Assembly: GCA_965242965.1 (NCBI GenBank) | Contig: OZ251518.1 | Location: 2,432,001-2,496,000, forward strand | From: Candidatus Poribacteria bacterium | GTDB taxonomy: Bacteria; Poribacteria; WGA-4E; WGA-3G | DNA length: 64,000 bases | Direction: 5' to 3' | Shown: positions 8,017-20,716 of the stretch, in pieces | Numbering within the stretch: the first letter of the stretch is position 1 | Layout of the letters: every line of letters begins with the position of its first letter | Made by a program: the position numbers and the translations under genes | Notes under the pieces: generated by a model | The model's database searches: none | What the model was told of the DNA's origin: nothing | The model's input: only the letters and a program-made list of their open reading frames with translations

Positions 8017-8020
8017 AATT

Positions 8021-8286
8021 GAGGAGGTTTCATAAATCGCTCAACGTCGCGGTGATATGCCCCGCGCTACGGTAAAAAAACGCCGCCCCTTCACGTAGGG
8101 CGAGGGTCTGTCCCTCGCCATGCGTTTTGGTGTCAGACCGCCTCACGCCTGTAGTTCAGGATCGCCTGATCCTGACCCGTTCGAGATCGGGCGATCTCGA
8201 ACTACAGAGGTGGGCCCGATGCCTGCCGGTATTCGCCCTCCCTCCAAGGCGGGATAACTACCGAAACGGAGTTATGAAACACCCTC
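8021..8286. mobile_element. MITE-like element with REP cargo
   Basis: GAGGAGGTTTCATAA...TTATGAAACACCCTC; imperfect flanking ATAATT duplication. Confidence 0.65.
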
Positions 8287-8389
8287 GTATAATTAGCGTA
8301 GTTTCTAACGCGTGCGGTGTCAATCCACATAATGGAATTTGAATGGGAGAAAAACAGAGCGGCAGTGTATCGAGAAGGCGGTGACATCA

Positions 8390-8611
8390 ATGCAGGATGA
8401 ACTTCGGCCTGAGTATGATTTGAAAAACATGCAGGTTAGGAAGGTAGGACCCGGGCGAAAGTATTTCGCAGGGAACCCCGTCATCTACCTAGAACCCGAT
8501 GTTGCGGCGGTATTTCCAGACGCTGCGGCTGTGAACGAGGCACTGCGGTTTCTGATGCGCGTCAGCAAGGAAAATCAGGCAGGATTGCCTCGCGTGAGTA
8601 GCGATGCCTGA
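8390..8611 (+). CDS. Small BrnA-like antitoxin family protein
   Basis: DELRPEYD...LEPDVAAVFPDAAAVNEALR pattern typical of antitoxins paired with BrnT-like toxins. Confidence 0.65.
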   Translation: MQDELRPEYDLKNMQVRKVGPGRKYFAGNPVIYLEPDVAAVFPDAAAVNEALRFLMRVSKENQAGLPRVSSDA

Positions 8612-8626
8612 ATCGTAACATTCTTC

Positions 8627-8655
8627 TTGACATTTTGATGCAAGCATGTTATCAT
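8627..8655 (+). promoter_or_regulatory. Sigma70-type promoter upstream of the GIY-YIG/DGQHR pair
   Basis: TTGACA-17bp-TATCAT with TG extension. Confidence 0.65.
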
Positions 8656-8677
8656 TAAAATGTCACTAGAGAACTCC

Positions 8678-8781
8678 GTTCACATGGAGTCAGGGTGAAA
8701 GTTTAGAGGAGCTCTCATAGTCCAAACGGATAGAGCAAATTAAGGCACGCGCGCAGAAGGCATCTGATTTGTCATAAGTGA
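8678..8781 (+). pseudogene. Relic copy of the 3' end of the PAPS-reductase (sspD-like) gene
   Basis: Near-identical to 16406-16489, joined to 16580-16598; encodes FTWSQGESLEELS* and ends ...ICHK-stop. Confidence 0.85.
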
Positions 8782-8791
8782 AGGTGTTTAC

Positions 8792-9415
8792 GTGAAAATA
8801 GCTGAGTTTCAAGGAAGCGAAATAGTGGAGGTCCCGAAACACTCCGGTATTTACGCGTGGTATTATCGCCCACAAGCATCTGGAAACAACGTCTCTGGCA
8901 TCCTAGGACAGTTGATAAAGACTCCCTTTCGCGTGAAGACCGAAATTGCTATGCGATATCGGGTAATCTGGACAGCGGAGTCCGAAGCCGAGGTTCTCCA
9001 CGGTGCCGAACTCCACCCTGCAGACCAGGTTGTGGCAAAGATAGTTACCGATGGCGGCGAACTCATCAAATCCTTGCTTCAACAGGCGATGGTGCCTTAC
9101 TTTGCAACACCTCTCTATATCGGAATTTCCCGAGACTTATCTCGGCGGGTGAAGGAACACTACGATTCCTTGACGCAGCTCTGGGAAACAGATGCACCCG
9201 TAAGCAATTATCTTGAACAGAATCCCGATGCAGCGGTCGAAGAGGTTCTGAATCAGTTTGATTTAAACCATTCATTTCCGCTCAACGCAAGAGTCAAAGG
9301 AATAGCCCCGAGCGATCTGGTAGTCTGTGTTTTTCCTGTTGAGGATCAGGAAAAACTGCGAGACTTAGAACAAATTCTTCAGATTCTCGCCGATCCAATT
9401 TGTGGTAGGAGATAA
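8792..9415 (+). CDS. GIY-YIG-like nuclease with widely spaced motifs
   Basis: PKHSGIYAWY...PLYIGISRDLSRRVKEH...DLEQIL. Confidence 0.7.
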   Translation: MKIAEFQGSEIVEVPKHSGIYAWYYRPQASGNNVSGILGQLIKTPFRVKTEIAMRYRVIWTAESEAEVLHGAELHPADQVVAKIVTDGGELIKSLLQQAMVPYFATPLYIGISRDLSRRVKEHYDSLTQLWETDAPVSNYLEQNPDAAVEEVLNQFDLNHSFPLNARVKGIAPSDLVVCVFPVEDQEKLRDLEQILQILADPICGRR

Positions 9416-9419
9416 GCCG

Positions 9420-11717
9420 ATGTCAACCATGTTCAGTGTCGCCAAAAACCCCATTTTCGGATCTTTTGGGGAATTTACAATTGGTGACAACTCAAATACC
9501 CTTCGGGCCAGATACCTTCTCACGAAAATCAGGCCGGGGAACGATGGCACTTGGGAATGCGAGTTGGCATCCCAAATGAAGCCATGGCGCGAAGTCTTCA
9601 ATCTTGAACAGTTGAGTTCCGATGAACTTTTACAACGAGAACTGGACGATTCGCGCGTAGCGCATGACCTCATCCCCTATCTGCTCGGTGAATCCGGAGA
9701 TAGAGCAAAGTTCTTTCCGCCGATTCTCGCCGTAATCGTCCCGCGTAAGCAGGGTGGCTCTGGAATTGAAGGGTTTTATCCGGCTCGGGAGGCTCAAGGC
9801 GCATCGGTTGAGCATTACGGCAATCTGTTTGATTTTGAGCGAATTGAATGGGGAGGTGAACTTACCCCACTCGCGCGTCTCAACTATAATCGGCAACGCG
9901 CCGCGTTCATTATTGTTGACGGCCAACATCGCGCTATGGCTGTGCTCGCTCTGCACAGGCAGTTGAACCAGAACTGGGGAGATAACGCCTTCGCCGCTTA
10001 CTACGAACACATCAAGGTGACACCCGAACAAGTCAAAAGCATTGAATTGCCGACGTGTATCATCTATTTCCCAGAGCTACATGATGGGAATCCGCTGCCG
10101 CGACAACAAGGTATCAATTTAAACTCCGTTTGTCGGGAGGTATTCCTAGTCGTCAACCGAAGTGCCAAACGTGTGAGCGCGGTGCGCGAGTGCTTGCTAG
10201 ACGACGAGGATATCGCCGCACGCCTGATGCGCCGAACCCTCTCAACGCTGAAAAACCGCGGCGAAGAACAGGGTGACTTAGCCCGAATTTATTCAATTTC
10301 TTATGGCGATTCAGACACCGAAACCGGAGAAAAAGAGGTAGCCTCCCGGCGACTTGAATATAGCAGTGCCATTGCGATACATAAGAGCCACAGCGCGATC
10401 GCTTTCGGTGTTAACGAAGGGTTTAAGTTAAAAAATCCTCAGGACATTTCGGAACGGTGTAAAACCAAAAACATCAATCGTCCATCCGAAATCCTACTGG
10501 GAACGAGTGTGGAAGATTACCGAATCCTCGCGCGCAATTCAGGGAAAACACTCCCAACCGCCGAAGTCGACGTAGTCGTCGAAAAACTGGGGAACTTGGC
10601 AGACGCTGCTTTGGTGCGACTTTTCGACCAATTTCGTCCGTTTCAGGTTCATAATGCCGAACTCCGAAAATTGAGACTGCGGCTTTCAGATGTTCATCCT
10701 GATGCTCAGAGCGAACAGAAGAAAGCGTATACGCTGATTTTCGAGGGAAGCGAGGAGCGGAACGTCTTTGACTCACATTTCAGGCGGCTGAGTTATGAAT
10801 GTGAGCGCGAGGGGCAAACAGTCCCACCGCACCTCCTGAATCAGATAGATTTCTGCAAGTCTGTTAAGCAGGCACTCGGCGAGCACGAACGCGAATTCCA
10901 ACGCCGCCGCGCATGCAAATTCTTCGGAATAAACCGCGCCCTATTTGATAGTGACGATCATCGGGAAGACCGCGCATTTCTGAGTAACAAGGCACGAAAA
11001 CTCTTCCTAACCGTGTCAACCCAAGCGTTTCAGTTGGGCTATGCCATGGCGATTTTCACCGTCGTTGAAGAGTTGAAACGCGGGAGACCGGATGCCTCCC
11101 CTTTGCTGTATCACGACAGGCTGAAACTTGTCGAATTCGTGACAGAGGCATATCTCGCTGCGCTCAACACTTACTTTTCCCCCAAGGACGATACGGTTCA
11201 TCAGGGGCTTGCTGGCTACATCTGCGAGCCGCGGGCATCGGTTTTTGATGCAAATTCTCCGGGGCTTCGCGGGCTCTTGGCGATGAGCGTCAATGAACTG
11301 AACGAACGCCAATGGCGATTTTTCCGCTACGCCATTTTAGAGATTGTCCACTCGCCGTTCTGCTGGCATGCTGCTCAGAAAAAAATGAAGCAGATGGACT
11401 GCGAATGGGCACTAACGTGGTATAAAGAATCCATCCCCAAATTGGTGGAGGGTATTCTGTCCGAACGTGCAAAGTATGTTGAGGATGCGCTGGAAGCGGG
11501 CATCAAAAGTCGCGATTTTGAACTGCTGAAAATGCGCACGGAATCTGAAGCGAGAGATGTCGGCAAAAGCGAAGAACGCATCCGGCAACTTGTTGAAAAA
11601 CTTCAGCATTCCCATCGGACCACAGCAAAGCAAAACGCGCTTGACCACCTCAAGGCAAGTTTAGAAACCGTTGAATCCAAATCGGAGATGATCCGACGTT
11701 TACGCGATAACTTTTAG
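9420..11717 (+). CDS. Large DGQHR-domain protein (DndB/ParB-superfamily N-terminus)
   Basis: LQRELD, FFPPILAV, IIVDGQHR, EVFLVVNRSAK motifs; long helical C-terminal region of unknown function. Confidence 0.8.
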   Translation: MSTMFSVAKNPIFGSFGEFTIGDNSNTLRARYLLTKIRPGNDGTWECELASQMKPWREVFNLEQLSSDELLQRELDDSRVAHDLIPYLLGESGDRAKFFPPILAVIVPRKQGGSGIEGFYPAREAQGASVEHYGNLFDFERIEWGGELTPLARLNYNRQRAAFIIVDGQHRAMAVLALHRQLNQNWGDNAFAAYYEHIKVTPEQVKSIELPTCIIYFPELHDGNPLPRQQGINLNSVCREVFLVVNRSAKRVSAVRECLLDDEDIAARLMRRTLSTLKNRGEEQGDLARIYSISYGDSDTETGEKEVASRRLEYSSAIAIHKSHSAIAFGVNEGFKLKNPQDISERCKTKNINRPSEILLGTSVEDYRILARNSGKTLPTAEVDVVVEKLGNLADAALVRLFDQFRPFQVHNAELRKLRLRLSDVHPDAQSEQKKAYTLIFEGSEERNVFDSHFRRLSYECEREGQTVPPHLLNQIDFCKSVKQALGEHEREFQRRRACKFFGINRALFDSDDHREDRAFLSNKARKLFLTVSTQAFQLGYAMAIFTVVEELKRGRPDASPLLYHDRLKLVEFVTEAYLAALNTYFSPKDDTVHQGLAGYICEPRASVFDANSPGLRGLLAMSVNELNERQWRFFRYAILEIVHSPFCWHAAQKKMKQMDCEWALTWYKESIPKLVEGILSERAKYVEDALEAGIKSRDFELLKMRTESEARDVGKSEERIRQLVEKLQHSHRTTAKQNALDHLKASLETVESKSEMIRRLRDNF

Positions 11718-11787
11718 ATGCCTGTCTTCGCGCAGCTCCTATAACTTGACAAGCACTTTTGAAAATGGCAATTTTACTGGAAGTATC

Positions 11788-14700
11788 ATGAACAACATAT
11801 CTTTGTCCGACATTTTTAGCGTTAACAGGCGTTTTCAGCGTTCGGTTCATCTGGAACGCGATTTCTATACCGAAAATGCCCTAGACGGTTACATCATAAC
11901 AAACACCGTTCGCGATACATTATCACGCGTCATTTACGCGCTTGAGCAGCGCGCAACATCAAAAGCGTGGTCTCTCACTGGCCCCTATGGTTCTGGGAAA
12001 TCCGCGTTCGCGCTTTTCACTACGAAGTTGCTCGGTGATTCTGCTGCACCGACAACCCAACAGGCTTCGCAACTGCTCAAACAAGCGGACGCAGCATTAT
12101 ACCAGCAATTCATTAAAGCAAAAGGAAAAGGTCGGTTGTCTCCCGGTTTCTGTCCTATCCTCATAACGGGAGAACGTGCCCCCATTACGCTTGCTCTCCT
12201 GCGCGGTTTGGAACAGGGACTTACTTCTTTCAATCGAACGCTGTTCTCCGATTTGCTTCTTCAGGATGTCAAAAACCTGCTGCAAACAGCAGACAAAGGC
12301 TCTCTTCCGCGCGCTTCTGAGATTACAGCCCTTTTTGAAACGGCGACACGGCAAATCTGTGCAGATGGAGGTTCAGGGATATTGCTGGTAATTGATGAAC
12401 TTGGGAAGTTCATTGAATATGCGGTGCAGCACCCGGATCGCGGAGACGCATTTGTCCTCCAAAGTCTCGCCGAATTTGCCTCGCGCAGCGGAAAAACCCC
12501 GCTGTTGCTATTGACAATTCTCCATCAGGCTTTTGAACAGTATGCACAGCGGGCCGCGAAATCCCAACGCGAAGAATGGGCAAAAGTGCAAGGACGGTTT
12601 GAGGATGCCATCTTTGCGGATTCCACCGAGCAGGTCCTCCGGCTCATCGGCGAAGCATTAACAACCCGTTCGGAACTCGTTCCAAAAACCAACTTCGCGA
12701 TTGCGGTTGACTTGGAACTCAAACCGCGGCAACTTGACGAGCACGAATTTATTCAACTGCTGGAAAGGTGTCTCCCCCTTCACCCGACAGTGGCACTCCT
12801 AATCGGTTCCCTTTTCCGGCGGTTTGCACAGAATGAACGTTCCTTATTCGCGTTCCTCGGTTCAAATGAACCCCACGGGCTCCAAGATTTTCTTTTGAAC
12901 CAATTTTACGATGGACGCGCGCTGCCGCTGTTTTCATTGGCGAATCTGTATGACTACATCAATACCGCGCTAGGAAATCGGCTGTATGAGTCGCGCGATA
13001 GCAAGAAATGGTCAGAAATTGAATCGGCAATTCAGCGTCTGCCAGATCCGTCTCCGATGACAGTCAGCCTGATTAAGACTATCGGTTTGCTCAATGCTGT
13101 GGGAGAGGTGAGCCGGAATCTGAAAGCCTCAGATCAGGTGCTCCGTTATGCGTTAGACGATGGCACGGCAGAATTCGCCGAGGAATTTACAGATGCGCTG
13201 GAGACGTTAGAAAAACGGTCTATTGTCACCTACCGCCGTTACAACGATGCGTATGCTCTCTGGGAAGGGAGCGACATTGACATTGAGACTAAACTCCGCG
13301 AAGCGTCAAAACATGTCAATCCGAATCTGCGAGTGGCAAAAGACCTGGAGAGACTTCTTCCCCAGCGGCCGCTTATCGCCAAACGGCACCTATTTCAGAC
13401 TGGCACCACGCGCTACTTCAACGTTCAGTATTCAGAACTTGAAACCTTTGAGGCGGATTTGCGCGCACCACTCGATGATGCAGATGGCCTTGTCCTCTAC
13501 GCATTGCCCGAAGATGAACTTGAAGTGGCGCAGCTCGTCGAAAAGGCATCCGCGGCGGAAGCCGCAAACCGAAAAGAGGTCTTGGTTGCCATTCCGCGCT
13601 CCATCGGTTTTTTGCGGGATGCTGTCCTTGAGTTGGCCCACCTGCGCTGGATCGCAGAAAACACCCCAAAGTTGAAAGGCGATGCAACCGCAAGACATGA
13701 ACTCTTATCGCGGTTAACCGTAGCGGAACATGATGTGGCTTCGCGCTTGGAGGCAATCTTTGGCGAGCACAGCGAGAAGACTTGCATCTGGTACCACAAG
13801 GGACGACCGGTGCAGATTGACTCGCAACGCGCGAGAAACGCCTATCTGTCAACTATCTGCGATGAGGTTTACGACGAAACTCCTATCCTGCAGAACGAAC
13901 TGATCAATCGGCATAAAATATCTGGTTCAGTGACAACCGCCAGACGAAAACTGATTCAGGCGATGCTTGAAAATGGAGGCGAGGAGAAACTCGGCATCAC
14001 CCGCTATCCACCAGAAATAACGATTTACGTTTCCATGTTGTCAACTACAAGTATTCACCGTCCAGTTTCGGGAGTGTGGGGATTTCACCCACCTGAACCT
14101 TCCGATAAAAACAGAATGGGCCCCACGTGGAAAGCGATTGAAACGTTCCTTGGCGAATGTGAAGTCGCGCGACAACCTGTCGTGAAACTCTACGAACGCT
14201 TGTCCGCACCACCACTAGGCGTGCGAAGCGGGCCGCTACCTATTCTGTTATGCGCCGCGATGCTCCACTACAAAACAGAAATCGCGCTCTACGAAGACGG
14301 TTCCTTTGTCGCCGACGTTTCAATGCCGGTTTTTGAACGCCTGATTAAGGCACCGGAGAAATTTGAATTAAAGCGGTTTCGGTTGGCAGGAGTCAGGACA
14401 GACGTGCTTTCGCAATTGGGGGGAGTGCTCAAACAACCAGCAGCGGCAGACACGCCAGACCTGCTAACGATAGTGACACCCCTTATGCGTTTCATTGCTG
14501 AACTCCCAAAGTATACGTTGTTAACGCAAACGTTGAGTGAGGAAGCGAAAAATCTCCGCAAAACCGTACTGGATGCACGCGAACCCGACATGCTCATCTT
14601 TGAGCAGCTCCCCGAAGCCATGGGGTGCCCTCCTTTTCGCATTGACGCAACATCCGATGCAAACGCCATTGATACCTTCTTCAAAAAGCTGCAAGACGCA

Positions 14701-15282
14701 TTGGCAGAAATAGGCGGGGCTTACGATATCCTGCTGAACTCCATTGAGCAACTCCTCGTCTCGGCGTTTGCTTTAAAACAGACGAACGAGGAACTTCGCA
14801 GGGAGTTGGCTGACAGAGCTGAATCCCTGTTGGCAGTAACGGTTGAGACGCGGCTCAAGGGATTCTTAATTCGCGCCTGCGACCTCGGTTTGGATTTCAC
14901 CGGCTGGCTTGAGGCGATCGCCACCTTCCTCGCCAACAAACCGCCGAGTTCGTGGAACGACACGGACAAGGCTCAATTTGAGGTGAACCTCTCCGAATTG
15001 GCGCGGAAGTTCCATCATTTTGAAGCGGTGTCTTACGAAAATCGCTCCCACGTCGAACAACCGTCGGCCGGTGAGTCCATTCGGATTGGCATCACCAGAG
15101 CGAATCAACGCGAGCAAGAACGGGTTGTCGCTTTGCCATCACCAACCGAGGAACAGGCTGCCAAACTTGAGCACGCGATTGAGGAGGTTTTTGAGAAATT
15201 CGGGATCGCTGAAAACACCGAACATTGCCTCGCTGTCATCGCGCGATTATCAGAAAAATTGATGCAACAACTAGAAAATTGA
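11788..15282 (+). CDS. Large P-loop ATPase, SspC-like (phosphorothioation-associated)
   Basis: RRFQRSVHLERD, AWSLTGPYGSGKS Walker A, LLVIDELGKFIE Walker B, EWAKVQGRF, YPLHP-like LPLHP, QNERSLF; next to a PAPS reductase. Confidence 0.8.
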   Translation: MNNISLSDIFSVNRRFQRSVHLERDFYTENALDGYIITNTVRDTLSRVIYALEQRATSKAWSLTGPYGSGKSAFALFTTKLLGDSAAPTTQQASQLLKQADAALYQQFIKAKGKGRLSPGFCPILITGERAPITLALLRGLEQGLTSFNRTLFSDLLLQDVKNLLQTADKGSLPRASEITALFETATRQICADGGSGILLVIDELGKFIEYAVQHPDRGDAFVLQSLAEFASRSGKTPLLLLTILHQAFEQYAQRAAKSQREEWAKVQGRFEDAIFADSTEQVLRLIGEALTTRSELVPKTNFAIAVDLELKPRQLDEHEFIQLLERCLPLHPTVALLIGSLFRRFAQNERSLFAFLGSNEPHGLQDFLLNQFYDGRALPLFSLANLYDYINTALGNRLYESRDSKKWSEIESAIQRLPDPSPMTVSLIKTIGLLNAVGEVSRNLKASDQVLRYALDDGTAEFAEEFTDALETLEKRSIVTYRRYNDAYALWEGSDIDIETKLREASKHVNPNLRVAKDLERLLPQRPLIAKRHLFQTGTTRYFNVQYSELETFEADLRAPLDDADGLVLYALPEDELEVAQLVEKASAAEAANRKEVLVAIPRSIGFLRDAVLELAHLRWIAENTPKLKGDATARHELLSRLTVAEHDVASRLEAIFGEHSEKTCIWYHKGRPVQIDSQRARNAYLSTICDEVYDETPILQNELINRHKISGSVTTARRKLIQAMLENGGEEKLGITRYPPEITIYVSMLSTTSIHRPVSGVWGFHPPEPSDKNRMGPTWKAIETFLGECEVARQPVVKLYERLSAPPLGVRSGPLPILLCAAMLHYKTEIALYEDGSFVADVSMPVFERLIKAPEKFELKRFRLAGVRTDVLSQLGGVLKQPAAADTPDLLTIVTPLMRFIAELPKYTLLTQTLSEEAKNLRKTVLDAREPDMLIFEQLPEAMGCPPFRIDATSDANAIDTFFKKLQDALAEIGGAYDILLNSIEQLLVSAFALKQTNEELRRELADRAESLLAVTVETRLKGFLIRACDLGLDFTGWLEAIATFLANKPPSSWNDTDKAQFEVNLSELARKFHHFEAVSYENRSHVEQPSAGESIRIGITRANQREQERVVALPSPTEEQAAKLEHAIEEVFEKFGIAENTEHCLAVIARLSEKLMQQLEN

Positions 15283-15464
15283 CATGACTAGATCGTAGGA
15301 AGGGAGTTCGTGTGGTTAATCTGGCAAGGGGTTTCCTTGTCGCAGATAGGAAACCTCTTCCGGTCCGTAAGTCCTAAAGAGATGTTTTCCCACAATGCGC
15401 CGTTTCCGATGCTTTCTGAAATGTTGCAAAAACCGTGGAATCTGACATCACAACAAATTTTAAT

Positions 15465-15493
15465 TTGACATTTTGCTGAAAATGTAGTATAAT
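15465..15493 (+). promoter_or_regulatory. Consensus sigma70 promoter upstream of the sspD-like/HNH/CBASS gene run
   Basis: TTGACA-17bp-TATAAT. Confidence 0.75.
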
Positions 15494-15779
15494 TAAAATA
15501 GCAATAAAATCTATAGCAAACGTTTTTTGTTTGCAAATTTTGGATTTTTATGGTATACTATACGAAACGTTGTTAATTGCGTTGGTTCGTGAACGGCTGC
15601 AGCATTGAGGCAGCACTCGGATTCATCGCAGCGAATGAAGTCGCGCGGCGGTTTTGAGAAATTACGCACAATTTTCATTCGCGTTAAAACACGTAGTTCA
15701 AAGGTGGAGGCAGTCAATTTGCAGATTCGGCACTGCAACTCCGTAAAGCCTATTTTATAGTAGCCAACAGGAGCAAAGC

Positions 15780-16598
15780 ATGGAAGAAAAAATACGCCAT
15801 CTCCTCGGCCTCTCCGGAGGCAAAGACAGTTCAGCGCTCGCCGTTTATATGCGAGACCGCGTGCCGCAGATGGAATACTTTTTCTGCGACACCGGGAAGG
15901 AACTGCCAGAGACTTACGAGTTTCTGGATCGGTTAGAGGCATTCCTCGGCAAACCGATCGCGCGCCTCAATGTAGAACGTGACTTCGATCATTGGCTCAC
16001 GCTCTACGGCGGCCTGCTGCCATCGTCGCAAGTTCGGTGGTGCACCTATAACCTCAAGATTAAGCCGTTTGAGGAATACGTAGGCGAGGACAAAGCGTAT
16101 CACTACATCGCGATTCGCGCCGACGAAGATCGCGTTGGCTATAAACCGCCGAAAACAACCGCGCTCCGAAGCATCGAACCCAAGTATCCTTTCAAGGATG
16201 ATGGCATCACCAAAGAGGATGTCTTCCGCATCTTGGAGGAAAACGGGATCGGTTTACCCGCCTATTACGATTGGCGGACGCGCTCCGGGTGCTACTTCTG
16301 CTTTTTCCAACGCAAAGCAGAATGGGTGGGGCTATTGGAAAAGCATCCTGACCTTTTTGAACTCGCCAAGGGTTATGAAAAATTCGACCCGGATACGGGC
16401 GAACGGTTCACATGGAGTCAGGGTGAAAGTTTAGAGGAACTCTCGGAACCTGAACGGATAGAGCAGATTAAGGCACGCGCGGAGAAGGCTACTGCCGCTA
16501 AGAAAACGGCGCGTCCCAATCGCCGCCTCATCGATATCCTCACCGATGTCCATGATGATGAGGATGACGATGAGCCTTGTCTGATTTGTCATAAGTGA
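15780..16598 (+). CDS. PAPS-reductase family protein, SspD-like phosphorothioation enzyme
   Basis: LSGGKDS PP-loop, DTGKELPETY, RWCT, RSGCYFCFFQ, C-terminal acidic run plus PCLICHK. Confidence 0.85.
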   Translation: MEEKIRHLLGLSGGKDSSALAVYMRDRVPQMEYFFCDTGKELPETYEFLDRLEAFLGKPIARLNVERDFDHWLTLYGGLLPSSQVRWCTYNLKIKPFEEYVGEDKAYHYIAIRADEDRVGYKPPKTTALRSIEPKYPFKDDGITKEDVFRILEENGIGLPAYYDWRTRSGCYFCFFQRKAEWVGLLEKHPDLFELAKGYEKFDPDTGERFTWSQGESLEELSEPERIEQIKARAEKATAAKKTARPNRRLIDILTDVHDDEDDDEPCLICHK

Positions 16599-16614
16599 GA
16601 CTTAGAGGTTCCTA

Positions 16615-17499
16615 ATGGATCGGGAAACACTTCTCGAAAAATTCACAAATCTCCGGCAATGGAACAGGGGTGCGGAGAGAGCACCGCATAAACCCTTGCT
16701 AATCATATACGCCATCGGCAAATTGCTGCGAGGTGAGGGCCGACTGACTCCATTTGCCGAAGCAGACGTGGACGTTGGAAAATTATTGCGGGAGTTCGGC
16801 GGGCGACAATCAAAACAGGGAACCCAGTATCCTTTTTGGCGGTTGCGCAACGATAGCATCTGGGAAGTAACCGATGCAGCCCTGATGTCCCCCAACTCCA
16901 GTGGGGACGTGAGAAAAAGCGAACTCCTCAATCTTAACGTTGCTGGTGGTTTTCACGAAGCCATTGCTGAACAACTCCAAAATGACACAAGTCTAGCTTT
17001 TGAAATAATTCATAAGCTGTTAGACATGCATTTTTGTGATGGAATGCATAGTGACATTTTGCAAGCCGCTGGCATTGAACTGCCCATCAAGGTTTTTGAA
17101 ACCAAGATGCGAACATCCAACTTCCGAGAAAAAGTCCTGAGAGCCTACGAATACAGATGTGCTGTCTGCGGTTTCGATGTGAAATTAGGAATACTTCCTC
17201 TCGCGTTGGAGGCCGCTCATATCAAATGGCAAGCGTTCGGCGGTCCTAATGAAGAGGTGAATGGACTGGCTCTTTGCGTCCTGCATCATAAGTTATTTGA
17301 CCGTGGGGCTTACACTTTGTCGCCCCAATGGGAAGTCCTGATATCAGATGATGCACACGGGTCTGTTGGTTTTGAGGAATGGCTGATGCGGTTCCACGGT
17401 AAACCAATTAACTTTCCGCAACGGCAGTCCTACTATCCGGGTGCAGATTTCATCAGTTGGCACGTCAACGAGGTGTTCCAAGGGGATTACCGGGAATAA
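16615..17499 (+). CDS. SBD-HNH phosphorothioate-dependent restriction endonuclease
   Basis: N-terminal APHKPLL and YPFWRL sulfur-binding-domain signatures; C-terminal CAVCG...AAHIK...NGLALCVLHHKLFD HNH. Confidence 0.85.
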   Translation: MDRETLLEKFTNLRQWNRGAERAPHKPLLIIYAIGKLLRGEGRLTPFAEADVDVGKLLREFGGRQSKQGTQYPFWRLRNDSIWEVTDAALMSPNSSGDVRKSELLNLNVAGGFHEAIAEQLQNDTSLAFEIIHKLLDMHFCDGMHSDILQAAGIELPIKVFETKMRTSNFREKVLRAYEYRCAVCGFDVKLGILPLALEAAHIKWQAFGGPNEEVNGLALCVLHHKLFDRGAYTLSPQWEVLISDDAHGSVGFEEWLMRFHGKPINFPQRQSYYPGADFISWHVNEVFQGDYRE

Positions 17500-17549
17500 T
17501 CCACTGAGCACACTTCATCCACAGTCAAAGTGTGTTAAGGATAAAAATC

Positions 17550-18521
17550 ATGGCAAATGTTCAGACTTACTTCAACAAGTTTCATGATACCATCAGAAGA
17601 AGCTATAACGACAATAGCATTCTGAGGGATAAGAGGGATCTGCTTTTACGGGATCTACAAGAAGGGCTGCGGAGGTACGCCTTGGCCTCTGGCATCAAAA
17701 TCCCGAGATACGAGCACTTCAATCAGGGCAGTTACGCGATGGATACCGGGATTGAACCGCTCTCCGGCGAGGATTATGATATTGATGTCGGCTTGACTTT
17801 TCATATATCAGCGTCGACCTATTCCCCCGTTGAGGTCAAGCAGTGGGTTTACGAAGCCTTGAACTCCGGGAACAGAACGGTGGAGTACAAACGTCCTTGC
17901 GTGAGGGTCCAATATCATCGGAAAGGGGAGGAAATCTACCACGTTGATTTTGCTGTCTATTCCGGAAAGGCCTATAATTGGGACAATCAGACCTATCTAG
18001 CAAAAGGCTTTTTGGGATCTGCCCCCGAAAACCAGGTCTGGGAAATTTCAGAACCGCATGGACTACTGGAAGCATTTCAGCAGAAATTTCCGAACGAAGG
18101 AGATCGAAATCAGTTTCGGCGAGTTATCCGATTCCTGAAGCGGTGGAAAGACGTGAATTTCACTGCGGAAGGAAACGCGCGTCCCACCGGGATTGCGCTG
18201 ACAGCGTGCGCCATGAATTGGTTTCAGCGTGGACTGGTTTATCGGGCTGCTGTTGGCACCAATTATGATGACTTAACAGCACTCAGGAACCTTGCTGAGT
18301 CAATCCTAAGTCAGTTTGATTTTGGGAATCGGATAAGTGTCAGACTACCTGTTCCACCACACAATGATCTGTTTGAGAAATTGAGCAACAAACAGATGGC
18401 AAACCTTGAAAGCAAACTTGCGGTACTCGTGACTTCCTTAACTCGGGCGCAAGAAGAATCTTCCTATGTTTCAGCATGCCGCATTCTACATCGCCTTTTC
18501 GGAGATGACTTTCTACCGTGA
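17550..18521 (+). CDS. CBASS CD-NTase (cGAS/DncV-like nucleotidyltransferase) 1
   Basis: NQGSYAMDTG...DYDIDVG, YHVDFAVY, RRVIRFLKRWKD. Confidence 0.9.
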   Translation: MANVQTYFNKFHDTIRRSYNDNSILRDKRDLLLRDLQEGLRRYALASGIKIPRYEHFNQGSYAMDTGIEPLSGEDYDIDVGLTFHISASTYSPVEVKQWVYEALNSGNRTVEYKRPCVRVQYHRKGEEIYHVDFAVYSGKAYNWDNQTYLAKGFLGSAPENQVWEISEPHGLLEAFQQKFPNEGDRNQFRRVIRFLKRWKDVNFTAEGNARPTGIALTACAMNWFQRGLVYRAAVGTNYDDLTALRNLAESILSQFDFGNRISVRLPVPPHNDLFEKLSNKQMANLESKLAVLVTSLTRAQEESSYVSACRILHRLFGDDFLP

Positions 18522-18605
18522 TAACCGGAACCAGCCGAATTTGGACAAGACTCGCGTAGTTTTTATAACGCTATGTTTTTCCATAACTAGAGAAGGTTAG
18601 TCAAA

Positions 18606-19553
18606 ATGGATGAGAAAATCAAAAGAATTCTGACAATTGATGGAGGAGGAATTAAAGGGGTATTCCCATCTTCCTTCCTTGCTACTGTTGAAGATTCAAT
18701 CAAAGACAACGTAGCAAACTATTTTGACTTAATCGTCGGTACCTCGACCGGTGGCATCATAGCTCTGGGCCTTGGGCTTGGATTATCAGCGCAGGAGATT
18801 TTGACGTTTTATGAAGAATCCGGACCTCGGATTTTTGGTGGGAATCGTCTTGGACGGTGGTTGAGAGGGCTTGGCATGTCAAAGTACAATAGCGACCCTC
18901 TTGAGGAAGCACTAAAGGAGTGCTTTGGGGAAAAGAAACTGGGCGATAGCAAAAAACGCCTAGTCATCCCATCAATGAACCTTGAAAATGGCGAGGTCTA
19001 CATCTACAAGACAGCCCATCATCCTCGATTGGAAAGAGATTTCAAGCAAAAGGTTGTTGATGTGGCCCTCGCAACCGCTGCCGCTCCAACTTATTTTCGC
19101 GCACATAGGTCGGATGGAGGAACCCCTCTAATTGATGGGGGTGTATGGGCGAATAACCCCGTGGGACTATCCGTAGTTGAAGCAATTGCGTTGCTTGACT
19201 GGCCAAGGGATTCTTTAAAAATCTTGAGTTTGGGTTGCACTCATGAACCATTAAACGTGAATTGGGGCAGAAAATTCTCACTAGGACGTTTATATTGGGC
19301 ACTAAAATTGTGCGACGTGTGTATGCATGCACAATCCCACGGATCCCTCGGAACAGCGCAACTTCTTGCGGGACATGATAACGTCATCAGGATTAACCCA
19401 TCCATGGCCAGCGGAAAGTTTGGTTTAGATAAAGCCAAGGAAATTTGCTCGCTCAAAGGTCTCGGAGTAGACCAAGCCCGAAAAGCGTTGCCTCAACTCC
19501 GCAAGGTTTTTATCAGCAATCCAGTAGAAGCATTTGAGGCTTTCCACAGATAA
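18606..19553 (+). CDS. CBASS patatin-like phospholipase effector (CapV-like)
   Basis: DGGGIKG, GTSTG, AAPTYF, DGGVWANNP; adjacent to CD-NTases. Confidence 0.9.
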   Translation: MDEKIKRILTIDGGGIKGVFPSSFLATVEDSIKDNVANYFDLIVGTSTGGIIALGLGLGLSAQEILTFYEESGPRIFGGNRLGRWLRGLGMSKYNSDPLEEALKECFGEKKLGDSKKRLVIPSMNLENGEVYIYKTAHHPRLERDFKQKVVDVALATAAAPTYFRAHRSDGGTPLIDGGVWANNPVGLSVVEAIALLDWPRDSLKILSLGCTHEPLNVNWGRKFSLGRLYWALKLCDVCMHAQSHGSLGTAQLLAGHDNVIRINPSMASGKFGLDKAKEICSLKGLGVDQARKALPQLRKVFISNPVEAFEAFHR

Positions 19554-19569
19554 ACGAAGGTGAAAAAAT

Positions 19570-20640
19570 ATGTTTACTTACTCAAACCAATTCAGTAGGT
19601 CTCTCGATCAGGTCATATCCCAATCGTTGGACATATCTGATGAGCACCACCAACTGGCGGTAGAACGCTATAAATCCATAGGTAACTGGCTAGAACGGAG
19701 AGGGTCTAGAGTCGCTCACTACCGTCCCGAAATCTATCCACAAGGCTCTTTTCTGCTGGGTACAGTTACGCGCCCTGTTTCCAACGCCGAAGAGTACGAT
19801 ATCGACCTCGTGAGCGAACTGAATCTTGAAAAATTCCGAATCAGCCAAGAAGGACTCAAGAACTTAGTCGGGGACGAAATCACGGCCTATGCCCGCACTC
19901 ACTATCTGGATCTGCCAAAGAATGGAAGGCGTTGCTGGACGCTGAATTATCCAGGCAATGCCCGATTCCACATGGACATCTTACCAGCGATTCCAGATGG
20001 AGAATCGTTCAAACAGACTCTCCTGTCAAACGCAGGATCGTTCCCGAATTTCTCTATTGCAATTGGCTTGTCAAGTTTTGCAATTGCAATTACTGACAGA
20101 GATCATTGCAATTACAATAGGATTGATCGGAATTGGCCTCGCAGTAATCCGAAGGGGTATGCAGCATGGTTCATGAACAGGGGACTCAACCGAGACCTGA
20201 CTGATACTCGGGCTGTTGAGGATGTCCCGGATCACAGCGTCAAAACACCCCTCCAGCGGACAGTTCAGATACTGAAGCGTCACCGCGACATCTGGTTTGA
20301 CAAGATGGTGAGGCAGCGCCGCTACAGACGAGACGATAAACCAATCTCTATCATCATTACGACGCTTGCGGCTCACGCCTACGAAGGCGAAAAAGACCTG
20401 CAAGAATCCCTCCAGAATATTGTAAGGAAGATGCCGAGCTCTATTGAGTGGCGATACGGTGGAGTCGCCTACGTACGCAATCCGGTGGATCCGTTGGAGA
20501 ACTTCGCTGACAAATGGCAGGAGCATCCTAGCCGAAAGGTTTGCTTCATGGACTGGCTTCAGCAGGTATCCGGGAAAATGAACGATTACCTGGCAAGGCG
20601 CGATATTTCGGCAATGAAGGCGTTACTACGGTTGCGCTAA
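19570..20640 (+). CDS. CBASS CD-NTase 2 (different subfamily from CD-NTase 1)
   Basis: IYPQGSFLLGT...EYDIDLV, FHMDILPA, SNPKGYAAWF, LKRHRD, ENFADKW. Confidence 0.88.
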   Translation: MFTYSNQFSRSLDQVISQSLDISDEHHQLAVERYKSIGNWLERRGSRVAHYRPEIYPQGSFLLGTVTRPVSNAEEYDIDLVSELNLEKFRISQEGLKNLVGDEITAYARTHYLDLPKNGRRCWTLNYPGNARFHMDILPAIPDGESFKQTLLSNAGSFPNFSIAIGLSSFAIAITDRDHCNYNRIDRNWPRSNPKGYAAWFMNRGLNRDLTDTRAVEDVPDHSVKTPLQRTVQILKRHRDIWFDKMVRQRRYRRDDKPISIIITTLAAHAYEGEKDLQESLQNIVRKMPSSIEWRYGGVAYVRNPVDPLENFADKWQEHPSRKVCFMDWLQQVSGKMNDYLARRDISAMKALLRLR

Positions 20641-20716
20641 GACAAAGGAGAGGTTGGAGAGGTGAGTAAGATAGAATCTCTTCGGGTCCTATGCACGTTA
20701 CCGAAGTGAAGCCCCC

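What the first reader, a model, noticed from the sequence alone, without database searches (positions are those of the whole stretch)
8792..16598. Non-canonical Ssp-type phosphorothioation system with a GIY-YIG plus DGQHR effector pair
Seen: a tightly spaced GIY-YIG-like gene, a 766-aa DGQHR protein and a large ATPase, followed about 500 bp later by a PAPS reductase. Known: SspC and SspD (with SspA/IscS and SspB DUF4007) write single-strand PT marks, and SspE reads them through a DGQHR NTPase domain coupled to an HNH-type nickase. Here no DUF4007 or cysteine desulfurase is in the window, and the DGQHR protein shows no recognisable HNH tail. Inference: a split sensor (DGQHR) and nuclease (GIY-YIG) form an alternative PT-dependent antiphage module. 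This is the best candidate for an undescribed system in the window.
Basis: partly seen in the sequence, partly recalled or inferred. Interest (0 to 1): 0.82.

Follow-up and report, generated by a model that had tools for sequence, protein, structure and literature searches.

The report
Undescribed nuclease–sensor pair beside Ssp genes
A small GIY-YIG nuclease and a large DndB-like protein form a conserved gene pair that in many bacteria sits beside the genes that put sulfur marks on the DNA backbone, so it is probably a new defence partner of that marking system; the copy here has lost one marking gene.

Summary
Window 8792-16598 encodes four proteins:
- a 207-aa protein;
- a 771-aa DGQHR protein whose frame overlaps the first by 14 bp;
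- SspC (PADLOC 1112 bits);
- SspD (386 bits), after a 497-bp gap.

The 207-aa protein has a GIY-YIG nuclease fold. In the fold search, five of the six best matches are entries named as GIY-YIG or 5hmC-specific nucleases (Z 8.4-5.3), and the next row has Z 3.5. The N-terminal domain of the DGQHR protein is DndB-like (hhalign 98.4%). The protein is not SspE.

The pair is conserved across 74 unique loci from other genomes and metagenomes:
- the GIY gene lies directly upstream of the DGQHR gene in 67 of the 70 loci with enough upstream sequence;
- 60 of 74 loci also hold sspB, sspC or sspD;
- 19 of the 23 loci with at least 6 kb on both sides hold all three.

A complex prediction supports binding (score 0.62, best control 0.01). 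I found no model in Pfam, NCBIfam or PADLOC and no paper that names the pair.

The missing SspB is a local loss, not a feature of the system.

The parts
8627..8655 (+). sigma-70-like promoter match upstream of the GIY gene (TTGACA, 17 nt, TATCAT; 11 of 12)
   Evidence: The number of such sites in the region (7) is no more than the shuffles give (8.5), so this is only a candidate.
8792..9415 (+). 207-aa GIY-YIG-fold nuclease with about 85 residues inserted between the GIY and YIG strands
   Evidence: Model pLDDT 91.7. VIA-align Z 8.4-7.8 to UvrC, I-TevI, R.Eco29kI and T4 EndoII, with the next unrelated row at Z 3.5. Foldseek's best hits are R.Eco29kI and UvrC, at a weak E of 0.02-0.05. Y21, Y109, G111, R119, H123 and E193 are conserved. 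Pfam GIY-YIG matches at E <= 1 in 24 of 41 homologues; the window's copy scores 14.5 bits against a cut-off of 22.6.
9402..11717 (+). 771-aa DGQHR protein (likely start at ATG 9420). It has an N-terminal DndB/ParB-like domain (about residues 16-300) and a helical C-terminal region (about 320-771) with no recognised family.
   Evidence: Pfam DndB 24.2 bits (cut-off 29.1) and TIGR03187 32 bits (cut-off 58.85). hhalign to DndB-like 420-aa proteins gives 98.4%, E 7e-15, over residues 37-303. 103 of the 120 listed homologues carry PF14072. Positions at least 95% identical in 67 full-length members are concentrated in residues 20-284, including Q78, R79 and D173-R177. AF2 mean pLDDT is 80.
11746..15282 (+). 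SspC (BrxC-like ATPase). The start is probably the ATG at 11788.
   Evidence: PADLOC SspC PDLC02779 1112.5 bits, residues 26-1094 on model positions 1-1053 of 1054.
15465..15493 (+). perfect TTGACA-17-TATAAT promoter match in the sspC-sspD gap
   Evidence: 12 of 12. It is a consensus match only.
15780..16598 (+). SspD (PAPS-reductase-like ATP pyrophosphatase)
   Evidence: PADLOC SspD 385.7 bits, full length. Pfam PAPS_reduct 38.5 bits.
16615..17499 (+). 294-aa HNH enzyme of the family named 'phosphorothioated DNA-binding restriction endonuclease'.
   Evidence: NCBIfam NF045808 315.1 bits (cut-off 180). Pfam HNH_2 39.4 bits. It lies next to the pair in only 1 of 74 other loci, the same-genus genome.

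Best explanation
The 207-aa GIY-YIG nuclease and the 771-aa DndB-like DGQHR protein form a two-protein effector module that works with the Ssp phosphorothioation system. It would be a third kind of Ssp partner beside SspE and SspFGH.

Shown here:
- The two genes are inherited together, end to start.
- They sit in or beside sspBCD operons in many lineages.
- The small protein has a nuclease fold with its catalytic residues conserved.
- The large protein has a conserved ParB/DndB-type domain.
- A model places the nuclease on the middle region of the large protein.

Inferred: the DGQHR protein reads the PT state of DNA, probably coupled to nucleotide hydrolysis as in other ParB-superfamily defence proteins. 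It then licenses the bound GIY-YIG nuclease to nick or cut invading DNA.

I favour an SspE-like logic, in which the module is harmless without PT, over a module that attacks all unmarked DNA. The reason is that the pair stays intact in two genomes that cannot write PT.

In this window the writer set is incomplete: sspC and sspD are present but sspB is absent. The local system is therefore probably not writing PT.
For: 1. Linkage. Among 74 unique loci, the GIY gene is adjacent and co-directional in 67 of the 70 with at least 600 bp upstream. The GIY stop lies mostly -16 to +5 bp from the DGQHR start. 60 of 74 loci hold SspB/C/D. 19 of the 23 loci with at least 6 kb on both sides hold all three. 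Of the 14 loci without any, 13 have under 6 kb on at least one side of the pair.
2. Gene order varies: Ssp upstream on the same strand in 37 loci, convergent in 14, on both sides in 4, downstream on the same strand in 4. The association survives rearrangement.
3. Identity to the window's proteins co-varies between GIY and DGQHR (Spearman 0.77, n = 70). Kin are not independent, so this is descriptive only.
4. GIY-YIG fold and residues.
5. DndB-like N-terminal domain with an invariant QR...DGQHR motif.
6. Complex prediction gives a median score of 0.62 against a best control of 0.01. That mark was reached by 116 of 157 solved complexes and 2 of 215 mismatched pairs. Two of the three runs passed and one scored 0.00. 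The runs agree in at least 0% of contacts, and the partner's pLDDT is at least 69. My own alignments were used, so the calibration counts hold only roughly. The interface is DGQHR residues 338-383 and 556-567.
7. In 5 loci a separate 420-aa DndB-like protein is also present, so the regulator role is already filled there.
8. One locus has a true SspE (859 bits) beside the pair. This recalls the reported coexistence of SspE and SspFGH (PMC8092258, passages read).
9. In 3 loci the GIY gene is replaced by an MntA/HepT pair.
10. The same-genus genome G066 keeps GIY-DGQHR intact without sspB, sspC or sspD. dN/dS between the two genomes is 0.21 for both genes.
Against: - No functional data exist. PT sensing, NTPase activity and nuclease activity are all inferred.
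- The window's DGQHR protein scores below the curated cut-offs of every DndB/DGQHR model.
- Its C-terminal 450 residues matched no known fold, and I could not fold that part alone.
- One of the three complex runs scored 0.00.
- The canonical Asn of GIY-YIG enzymes is not conserved in the window's clade.
- The 5 genome-contig loci and the 66 metagenome loci were found by searching with the DGQHR protein or its profile. The tallies therefore say how often Ssp accompanies the pair, not how often the pair accompanies Ssp.
- G066 shows the pair can persist without any Ssp writer, which also fits a PT-independent role.
- Here SspB is missing, so PT-dependent action in this organism is doubtful.
- No fused GIY-DGQHR protein appears among the best 150 of 1013 GIY relatives.
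Confidence: 0.6

Rival explanations
1. The pair belongs to the modification side. The DGQHR protein would be an enlarged DndB-type regulator or ATPase helper of PT writing, and the GIY-YIG enzyme would supply or control the nick into which sulfur is inserted. In this window it might even stand in for the missing SspB.
For: - The N-terminal domain is homologous to DndB. DndB is described as a negative regulator of PT (PMC4507180, search listing only; PMC10853773, passages).
- The pair lies directly after sspD on the same strand in 35 of 74 loci.
- This genome has sspC and sspD but no sspB.
Against: - In 39 of 74 loci SspB is present together with the pair, so the GIY enzyme is not a general replacement.
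- IscS-SspBCD alone was used to give PT-based protection with SspE or SspFGH in E. coli (PMC8092258, passages), so no extra writer component is required.
- A separate DndB-like protein coexists with the pair in 5 loci.
- G066 keeps the pair under purifying selection with no writer genes.
- The GIY gene is swapped for an MntA/HepT pair in 3 loci.
Confidence: 0.2
2. The pair is a stand-alone, PT-independent defence or type IV-like nuclease. It merely tends to lie in the same defence islands as Ssp.
For: - G066 has the pair with an HNH enzyme of the PT-binding family and no Ssp writer.
- The window's island also carries CBASS-like genes.
- ParB-like domains joined to nucleases act alone in GmrSD-type enzymes (PMC4619093, search listing only; otherwise recalled).
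Against: - 60 of 74 loci hold Ssp genes. These usually abut the pair in one operon, rather than lying scattered in an island.
- 19 of the 23 loci with long flanks hold all of sspBCD.
- No other defence system recurs at a similar rate. The next most frequent neighbour is the PT-associated TIGR04096 protein, in 14 loci.
Confidence: 0.12
3. In this particular genome the whole cluster is a decaying remnant with no present function.
For: - SspB is absent from the genome.
- The sister genome has lost sspC and sspD too.
- The island is variable between the two genomes.
Against: - All four genes are full length with no stops. They match their models or homologues end to end.
- dN/dS for the pair is 0.21.
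Confidence: 0.08

Closest known systems
SspE (PT-sensing partner of SspABCD)
   Same: It is encoded next to sspBCD. It has a ParB-superfamily nucleotide-binding domain with a DGQxR-type motif coupled to a DNA nickase, and is of similar overall size (about 760-770 aa). It is harmless without PT, according to PMC8092258 (passages).
   Different: The window protein has no PADLOC SspE match at E <= 0.01, whereas a true SspE in L102 scores 859 bits. hhalign against that SspE gives a probability of 0.5%. There is no DUF1524/HNH domain; the nuclease is a separate GIY-YIG protein. That SspE's own motif reads DGQQR is recalled, not checked here.
DndB (PF14072, TIGR03233)
   Same: The N-terminal domain is homologous (hhalign 98.4%) and has the same QR and DGQHR motifs. 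NCBI annotation names relatives 'DNA sulfur modification protein DndB'.
   Different: It is twice as long, with an unrelated helical region of about 450 aa. It scores 13.3 bits against the TIGR03233 cut-off of 328. It is linked to ssp genes rather than dnd genes, always has a nuclease partner, and coexists with ordinary DndB-like proteins in 5 loci.
SspFGH
   Same: It is an accessory module beside sspBCD and can coexist with SspE.
   Different: SspFGH has three genes, with a Walker A motif in SspF and an FtsK-like C-terminus in SspH, and it is toxic without PT (PMC8092258, passages). Here there are two genes, with no such features in Pfam, and the pair is retained in genomes without writers. 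No SspFGH sequences were compared.
GIY-YIG restriction and repair nucleases (R.Eco29kI, UvrC N-domain, I-TevI, T4 EndoII)
   Same: The fold and core residues are shared.
   Different: There is an insertion of about 85 residues between the GIY and YIG elements. It scores below Pfam's cut-off. It works, by inference, as a subunit of a larger sensor rather than alone.
GmrSD / DUF262-DUF1524 type IV enzymes
   Same: A ParB-like NTPase is joined to a nuclease for modification-dependent restriction. This is recalled; for PMC4619093 I saw the search listing only.
   Different: The nuclease family is different, the module is split into two genes, and it is linked to a PT writer.

Membership tests
Ssp modification module (SspABCD) | SspC ATPase | tested here: met
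   PADLOC SspC 1112.5 bits, full length.
Ssp modification module (SspABCD) | SspD PAPS-reductase-like protein | tested here: met
   PADLOC SspD 385.7 bits; Pfam PF01507 38.5 bits.
Ssp modification module (SspABCD) | SspB (DUF4007) | tested here: not met
   No PF13182 match in the whole genome. No hit with my own SspB profile on six-frame ORFs. Only chance tblastn hits in the window. The same Pfam search rings in 4 of 5 related genomes.
Ssp modification module (SspABCD) | Cysteine desulfurase (SspA or IscS) | tested here: met
   It is not beside the cluster. Eight Aminotran_5 matches lie elsewhere in the genome. The best SspA-like match is at C1:4049724-4050899, E 3e-89.
Ssp modification module (SspABCD) | Single-strand PT in the DNA | not testable with these tools
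   Needs LC-MS/MS or iodine cleavage.
SspE | Match to SspE models (DUF262 N-domain) | tested here: not met
   No SspE hit at E <= 0.01. hhalign probability 0.5% against a true SspE.
SspE | C-terminal DUF1524/HNH nuclease | tested here: not met
   No Pfam hit beyond DndB. R642 and H650 are not conserved in the distant clade.
DndB (PF14072 / TIGR03233) | Score above the curated cut-off | tested here: not met
   PF14072 24.2 bits against 29.1. TIGR03233 13.3 bits against 328. TIGR03187 32 bits against 58.85.
DndB (PF14072 / TIGR03233) | Homologous ParB-like domain with QR and DGQHR motifs | tested here: met
   hhalign 98.4% over residues 37-303. Motifs are at least 95% conserved in 67 members. 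103 of 120 listed homologues carry PF14072.
GIY-YIG nuclease superfamily | Fold | tested here: met
   VIA-align Z 8.4, 8.2, 8.0 and 7.8 to UvrC, I-TevI, R.Eco29kI and EndoII. The next unrelated row has Z 3.5. The tool warns that Z under 8 can be a common arrangement; the gap to the rows below and the consistency of the hits are what I rely on.
GIY-YIG nuclease superfamily | Catalytic Tyr, Tyr, Arg, His, Glu (and Asn) | tested here: met
   Y109, G111, R119, H123 and E193 are invariant, and Y21 is at least 90% conserved, in 41 sequences. The Asn is present in many members but not in the window's clade. The assignment of roles follows I-TevI and UvrC and is recalled.
GIY-YIG nuclease superfamily | Pfam PF01541 above the gathering score | tested here: not met
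   14.5 bits against 22.6. There are weak hits in 24 of 41 homologues, best E 0.00055.
SspFGH | Walker A protein SspF and FtsK-like SspH | tested here: inconclusive
   No such domains in Pfam for the two proteins. No SspFGH sequence or model was compared. The features are taken from passages of PMC8092258.
PT-DNA-binding restriction endonuclease (NF045808), for 16615-17499 | Score above the curated cut-off, plus an HNH motif | tested here: met
   315.1 bits against 180. Pfam HNH_2 39.4 bits.

The most novel reading that the evidence does not exclude
GIY-YIG plus long-DndB is a third, widespread class of effector coupled to Ssp phosphorothioation. It would account for part of the large share of sspBCD operons with no known restriction partner. 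About 85% of 2,678 sspBCD operons had neither SspE nor SspFGH in PMC8092258 (passages). In this reading a ParB-type nucleotide switch reads backbone sulfur and gates a GIY-YIG nuclease held in trans. It could even act without a resident writer, as a reader of PT on foreign DNA, as the sister genome's pair-plus-HNH arrangement hints.
Probability: 0.5. Interest if true: 0.75.

Novelty: new variant of a known kind. Interest (0 to 1): 0.62.

Why it matters
Most sspBCD operons have no known restriction partner, so how PT marks are turned into defence is open for most of them. This pair is a concrete candidate that is conserved and widely spread. The GIY family alone has 597 clusters at 50% identity with E <= 1e-10. 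It occurs in culturable strains, so it can be tested directly: Trichormus variabilis ATCC 29413 plasmid A and Asticcacaulis excentricus CB 48 pASTEX02. It would also show a DndB-type domain, so far discussed mainly as a regulator, working as the sensor of a nuclease.

Tried and rejected
- Whole-model fold searches of the DGQHR protein gave nothing. Foldseek on pdb gave no E <= 0.001; SspE chains appear at ranks 7 and 16 with probability 0.05-0.06. VIA-align wide gave only helical-hairpin matches with Z <= 6.8. The fold of residues 320-771 is therefore untested, not new.
- A HEPN-like or His-Me-like site at R642/E647/H650 is rejected. R642 and H650 are not conserved in the distant clade.
- PDB sequence search with the DGQHR profile gave only a chance hit. 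With the GIY profile it gave sub-threshold hits to T4 EndoII and UvrC.
- The protein atlas on residues 320-771 gave scores of 0.85 or less, which are leads only.
- SspB remnants in the window: none. The sspC-sspD gap has no blastn match in any locus.
- The GHKL-type 817-aa partner, found after the DGQHR gene in 8 of 74 loci, is absent from this genome. It is unrelated to the 14-locus neighbour family, which is TIGR04096.
- Expression: no RNA holder is listed.
- Contigs of 4 public runs were laid on 8700-17600. None of the 30 rows shown bridges 11735-11851, and 216 rows were not shown. The DGQHR-sspC junction is therefore neither confirmed nor contradicted. One weak joint in one run (11724 to 17203, side 29) resembles the sister genome's form.
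- The search of earlier findings was not open.
- Literature: no description of the pair was found with searches on 'DGQHR'/'SspC', 'SspFGH', 'sspBCD'+'GIY-YIG', 'DGQHR', 'SspABCD' (2022 on), 'phosphorothioat'+'GIY-YIG'+'DndB', and 'sspBCD' (2021 on). Subscription papers (for example the 2020 SspE paper) and supplementary tables were not seen and may bear on this.

Full report
**What is in the window.**
Between 8792 and 17499, all on the + strand, lie five genes.
- A 207-aa ORF (8792-9415).
- A 771-aa ORF (9402-11717). It overlaps the first by 14 bp if it starts at the GTG. The consensus start of its homologues corresponds to the ATG at 9420.
- A 1178-aa ORF (11746-15282).
- After a 497-bp gap, a 272-aa ORF (15780-16598).
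- Sixteen bases further on, a 294-aa ORF (16615-17499).

PADLOC calls the third SspC (1112.5 bits, end to end) and the fourth SspD (385.7 bits). Pfam finds PAPS_reduct in the fourth. NCBIfam calls the fifth a 'phosphorothioated DNA-binding restriction endonuclease' (NF045808, 315 bits, cut-off 180), and Pfam sees an HNH_2 domain in it. The first protein has no match at E <= 0.01 in Pfam or PADLOC, and in NCBIfam only a chance-level one (E 0.097). The second has only sub-threshold DndB/DGQHR matches. Downstream follow a cyclase, a patatin-like phospholipase and a second cyclase of CBASS type (17532-20640). It stopped one gene short of an HNH enzyme.

**The small protein is a GIY-YIG nuclease.**
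An alignment of 41 homologues shows G-x-Y-A-W-Y-Y near the N-terminus. About 85 residues later comes P-x-Y-I-G followed by R119 and H123, and near the C-terminus an invariant E193. The AlphaFold2 model is confident (mean pLDDT 91.7).

VIA-align against 48,161 chains gives these top rows:
- UvrC's GIY-YIG domain (Z 8.4, rmsd 2.6, 85 aligned);
- I-TevI (Z 8.2);
- a plant glutaredoxin N-domain (Z 8.0);
- R.Eco29kI (Z 8.0);
- T4 EndoII (Z 7.8);
- PD-T4-3 (Z 5.3).

The list then drops to Z 3.5. Foldseek's best rows are the same enzymes at weak E-values. Pfam's GIY-YIG model gives weak hits in 24 of 41 members, and the window's copy scores 14.5 bits against a cut-off of 22.6. The long insertion between the two motif strands explains why sequence models miss it.

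**The large protein is a long relative of DndB.**
Residues 37-303 align to ordinary 420-aa DndB-like proteins with hhalign probability 98.4%. 103 of the 120 listed homologues carry PF14072. In 67 full-length members the positions that are at least 95% identical are concentrated in residues 20-284. They include Q78, R79, D83, R85 and D173-G-Q-H-R177. Residues 320-771 are helical in the model (mean pLDDT 80 overall) and matched nothing convincing. I could not fold that part alone.

The protein is not SspE. It has no SspE hit in PADLOC, whereas a genuine SspE found in locus L102 scores 859 bits. hhalign to that SspE gives a probability of 0.5%. A candidate R-x7-H site in the C-terminal region is not conserved in the distant clade and was dropped.

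**The pair is conserved and tied to Ssp.**
A search with the DGQHR protein and its profile gave 5 loci from genomes, 66 from metagenomes and 9 more from genomes of the window's own phylum. After merging near-identical copies there are 74 unique loci. I scored them with profiles built here.
- The GIY gene lies directly upstream on the same strand in 67 of the 70 loci that have at least 600 bp upstream. Its stop is mostly -16 to +5 bp from the first start codon of the DGQHR frame.
- 60 of 74 loci hold at least one of SspB, SspC or SspD (SspD 60, SspC 50, SspB 39, SspA 19).
- Of the 23 loci with at least 6 kb on both sides, 19 hold all three.
- Of the 14 loci with none, 13 have under 6 kb on at least one side of the pair.
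- Gene order varies: Ssp upstream on the same strand in 37 loci, convergent in 14, on both sides in 4, downstream on the same strand in 4, upstream on the opposite strand in 1. SspD directly precedes the GIY gene in 35 loci.

These loci were found through the DGQHR protein. The counts therefore say how often Ssp accompanies the pair, not the reverse.

The three loci without a GIY gene carry an MntA/HepT nucleotidyltransferase-RNase pair in its place. The GIY family is large. It has 1013 clusters at 50% identity with E <= 0.001, 597 with E <= 1e-10 and 180 with E <= 1e-30. The best 150 are all stand-alone proteins of 158-334 aa, so no fusion was seen among them.

Named hosts include cyanobacteria, Poribacteria, Gemmatimonadetes, Gammaproteobacteria and Desulforhabdus. 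Plasmids of Trichormus variabilis ATCC 29413 and Asticcacaulis excentricus CB 48 also carry it. There the large protein is annotated 'DNA sulfur modification protein DndB'. The small one is annotated as hypothetical in the Trichormus record and is not listed in the Asticcacaulis table.

**Do the two proteins bind?**
Complex prediction supports it but does not show it. The median score was 0.62 against a best control of 0.01. That mark was reached by 116 of 157 solved complexes and 2 of 215 mismatched pairs. Two of three runs passed and one scored 0.00. The runs agree in at least 0% of contacts, and the partner's pLDDT is at least 69. My own alignments were used, so the calibration holds only roughly. 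The predicted interface uses DGQHR residues 338-383 and 556-567, outside the DndB-like domain. On the GIY side it uses residues 5-13, 26-33, 97-99, 128-133 and 172-175.

**The local state: an incomplete writer.**
SspB (DUF4007) is absent from this 5.70-Mb genome, which is 94.7% complete in 2 contigs. The same search finds it in 4 of 5 related genomes. The fifth, the same-genus genome G066, also lacks SspC and SspD. Even so, G066 keeps GIY-DGQHR followed directly by an HNH enzyme of the same family as the window's.

DNA comparison shows that the window's 11725-16659 (sspC, sspD) and its CBASS genes have no counterpart in G066. Between the two genomes the pair has dN/dS 0.21. A flanking sigma-54 activator has 0.07. 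The HNH gene is only 60% identical in protein. SspC and SspD here are full length.

'No DUF4007' is therefore a loss within this genus, not a trait of the system. In other loci of the same general order, sspB sits between the DGQHR gene and sspC (for example L058).

**Mechanism.**
I take the pair to be an effector module of Ssp. A ParB/DndB-type domain would read the PT state of DNA, coupled to nucleotide hydrolysis. A helical scaffold would hold the nuclease, and the GIY-YIG enzyme would nick or cut. All activities are inferred.

The pair is intact and under purifying selection in two genomes that cannot write PT. A module that attacks every unmarked DNA, as reported for SspFGH (PMC8092258, passages), seems less likely than one that is inert without PT, as reported there for SspE. 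The timing of the gene losses is unknown, so this argument is weak.

The rival that the pair regulates or assists PT writing is kept at 0.2, for three reasons. SspB coexists with the pair in 39 loci. Separate DndB-like proteins coexist with it in 5. And IscS-SspBCD suffices for PT-based defence in E. coli (PMC8092258, passages).

**Comparison with what is known, and novelty.**
The pair works like SspE in outline but fails SspE's membership tests. Its N-domain is DndB-like, but the protein fails the DndB equivalog by a wide margin. By published description it differs from SspFGH, though no SspFGH sequences were compared.

From the papers (passages read in each case):
- A broad reappraisal of Dnd neighbourhoods mentions URI/GIY-YIG nucleases at the edges of Dnd systems and calls sspE the equivalent of DndB. 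It does not describe this pair (PMC10853773).
- The 2013 survey of defence systems mentions DGQHR/DUF262 and DndB in general terms (PMC3632139).
- The BREX type 4 paper surveys sspD neighbourhoods without naming the pair (PMC12914056).

Seven literature searches found no description. Subscription journals and supplements were not seen. I rate it a new variant of a known kind: a known modification system with an undescribed effector module.

Noticed in passing
window 17532-20640: CBASS-like trio on the + strand: a CD-NTase-type cyclase (PADLOC 357 bits), a patatin-like phospholipase effector (349 bits) and a second, different cyclase (386 bits). Two cyclases around one effector is an unusual layout.
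   Followed up: no
window 8018-20711 versus L095 (G066): The stretch between a sigma-54 activator and 226-aa gene on one side and a 6-phosphogluconolactonase-like gene on the other is a variable defence island. The same-genus genome lacks sspC, sspD and the CBASS genes and carries a TIR-domain protein instead.
   Followed up: partly
loci L019, L022, L023, L026, L027, L029, L034, L039, L046, L049, L056, L058, L063, L076: A protein of about 670 aa matching TIGR04096, 'DNA phosphorothioation-associated putative methyltransferase' (500-732 bits in the two scanned), flanks the Ssp-plus-pair cluster in 14 loci. It is often on the opposite strand. It is absent from the window.
   Followed up: partly
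L013, L014, L015, L019, L027, L037, L040, L049, L056, L101; L108 (Trichormus variabilis plasmid A): A PbeA-like helicase (with a PLD domain in the one scanned, L013) occurs in 10 loci and a GHKL ATPase (MzaB-like) in 8. In 6 of these loci a protein of about 310 aa also recurs beside the pair; it is annotated as a phospholipase D family protein in T. variabilis. This may be a second restriction module of these Ssp loci.
   Followed up: partly
L009-L012, L096-L099: An 817-aa protein with a weak HATPase_c_3 match follows the DGQHR gene directly in 8 of 74 loci, mostly the window's closest relatives. It is absent from the window's genome.
   Followed up: partly
L020, L021, L025: The GIY gene is replaced by an MntA-like nucleotidyltransferase and a HepT-like RNase. 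In L021 and L025 a BrxL-like protein (414 bits in L025) follows the DGQHR gene.
   Followed up: partly
L102 (G079): One locus holds sspB-sspC-sspD, a true SspE (859 bits), a 420-aa DndB-like protein and the GIY-DGQHR pair together.
   Followed up: no
window 15465-15493: A perfect TTGACA-17-TATAAT match lies in the sspC-sspD gap, so sspD and the HNH gene may have their own promoter. The gap has no blastn match in other loci.
   Followed up: no
window 11700-16600 in public runs X1, X2, X6, X10: Summed contig depth over sspC-sspD is about 2-3 times that over GIY-DGQHR in two runs, and contigs break at 11735-11851 in all four. This suggests several co-occurring strains with related sspCD and different junctions.
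   Followed up: partly
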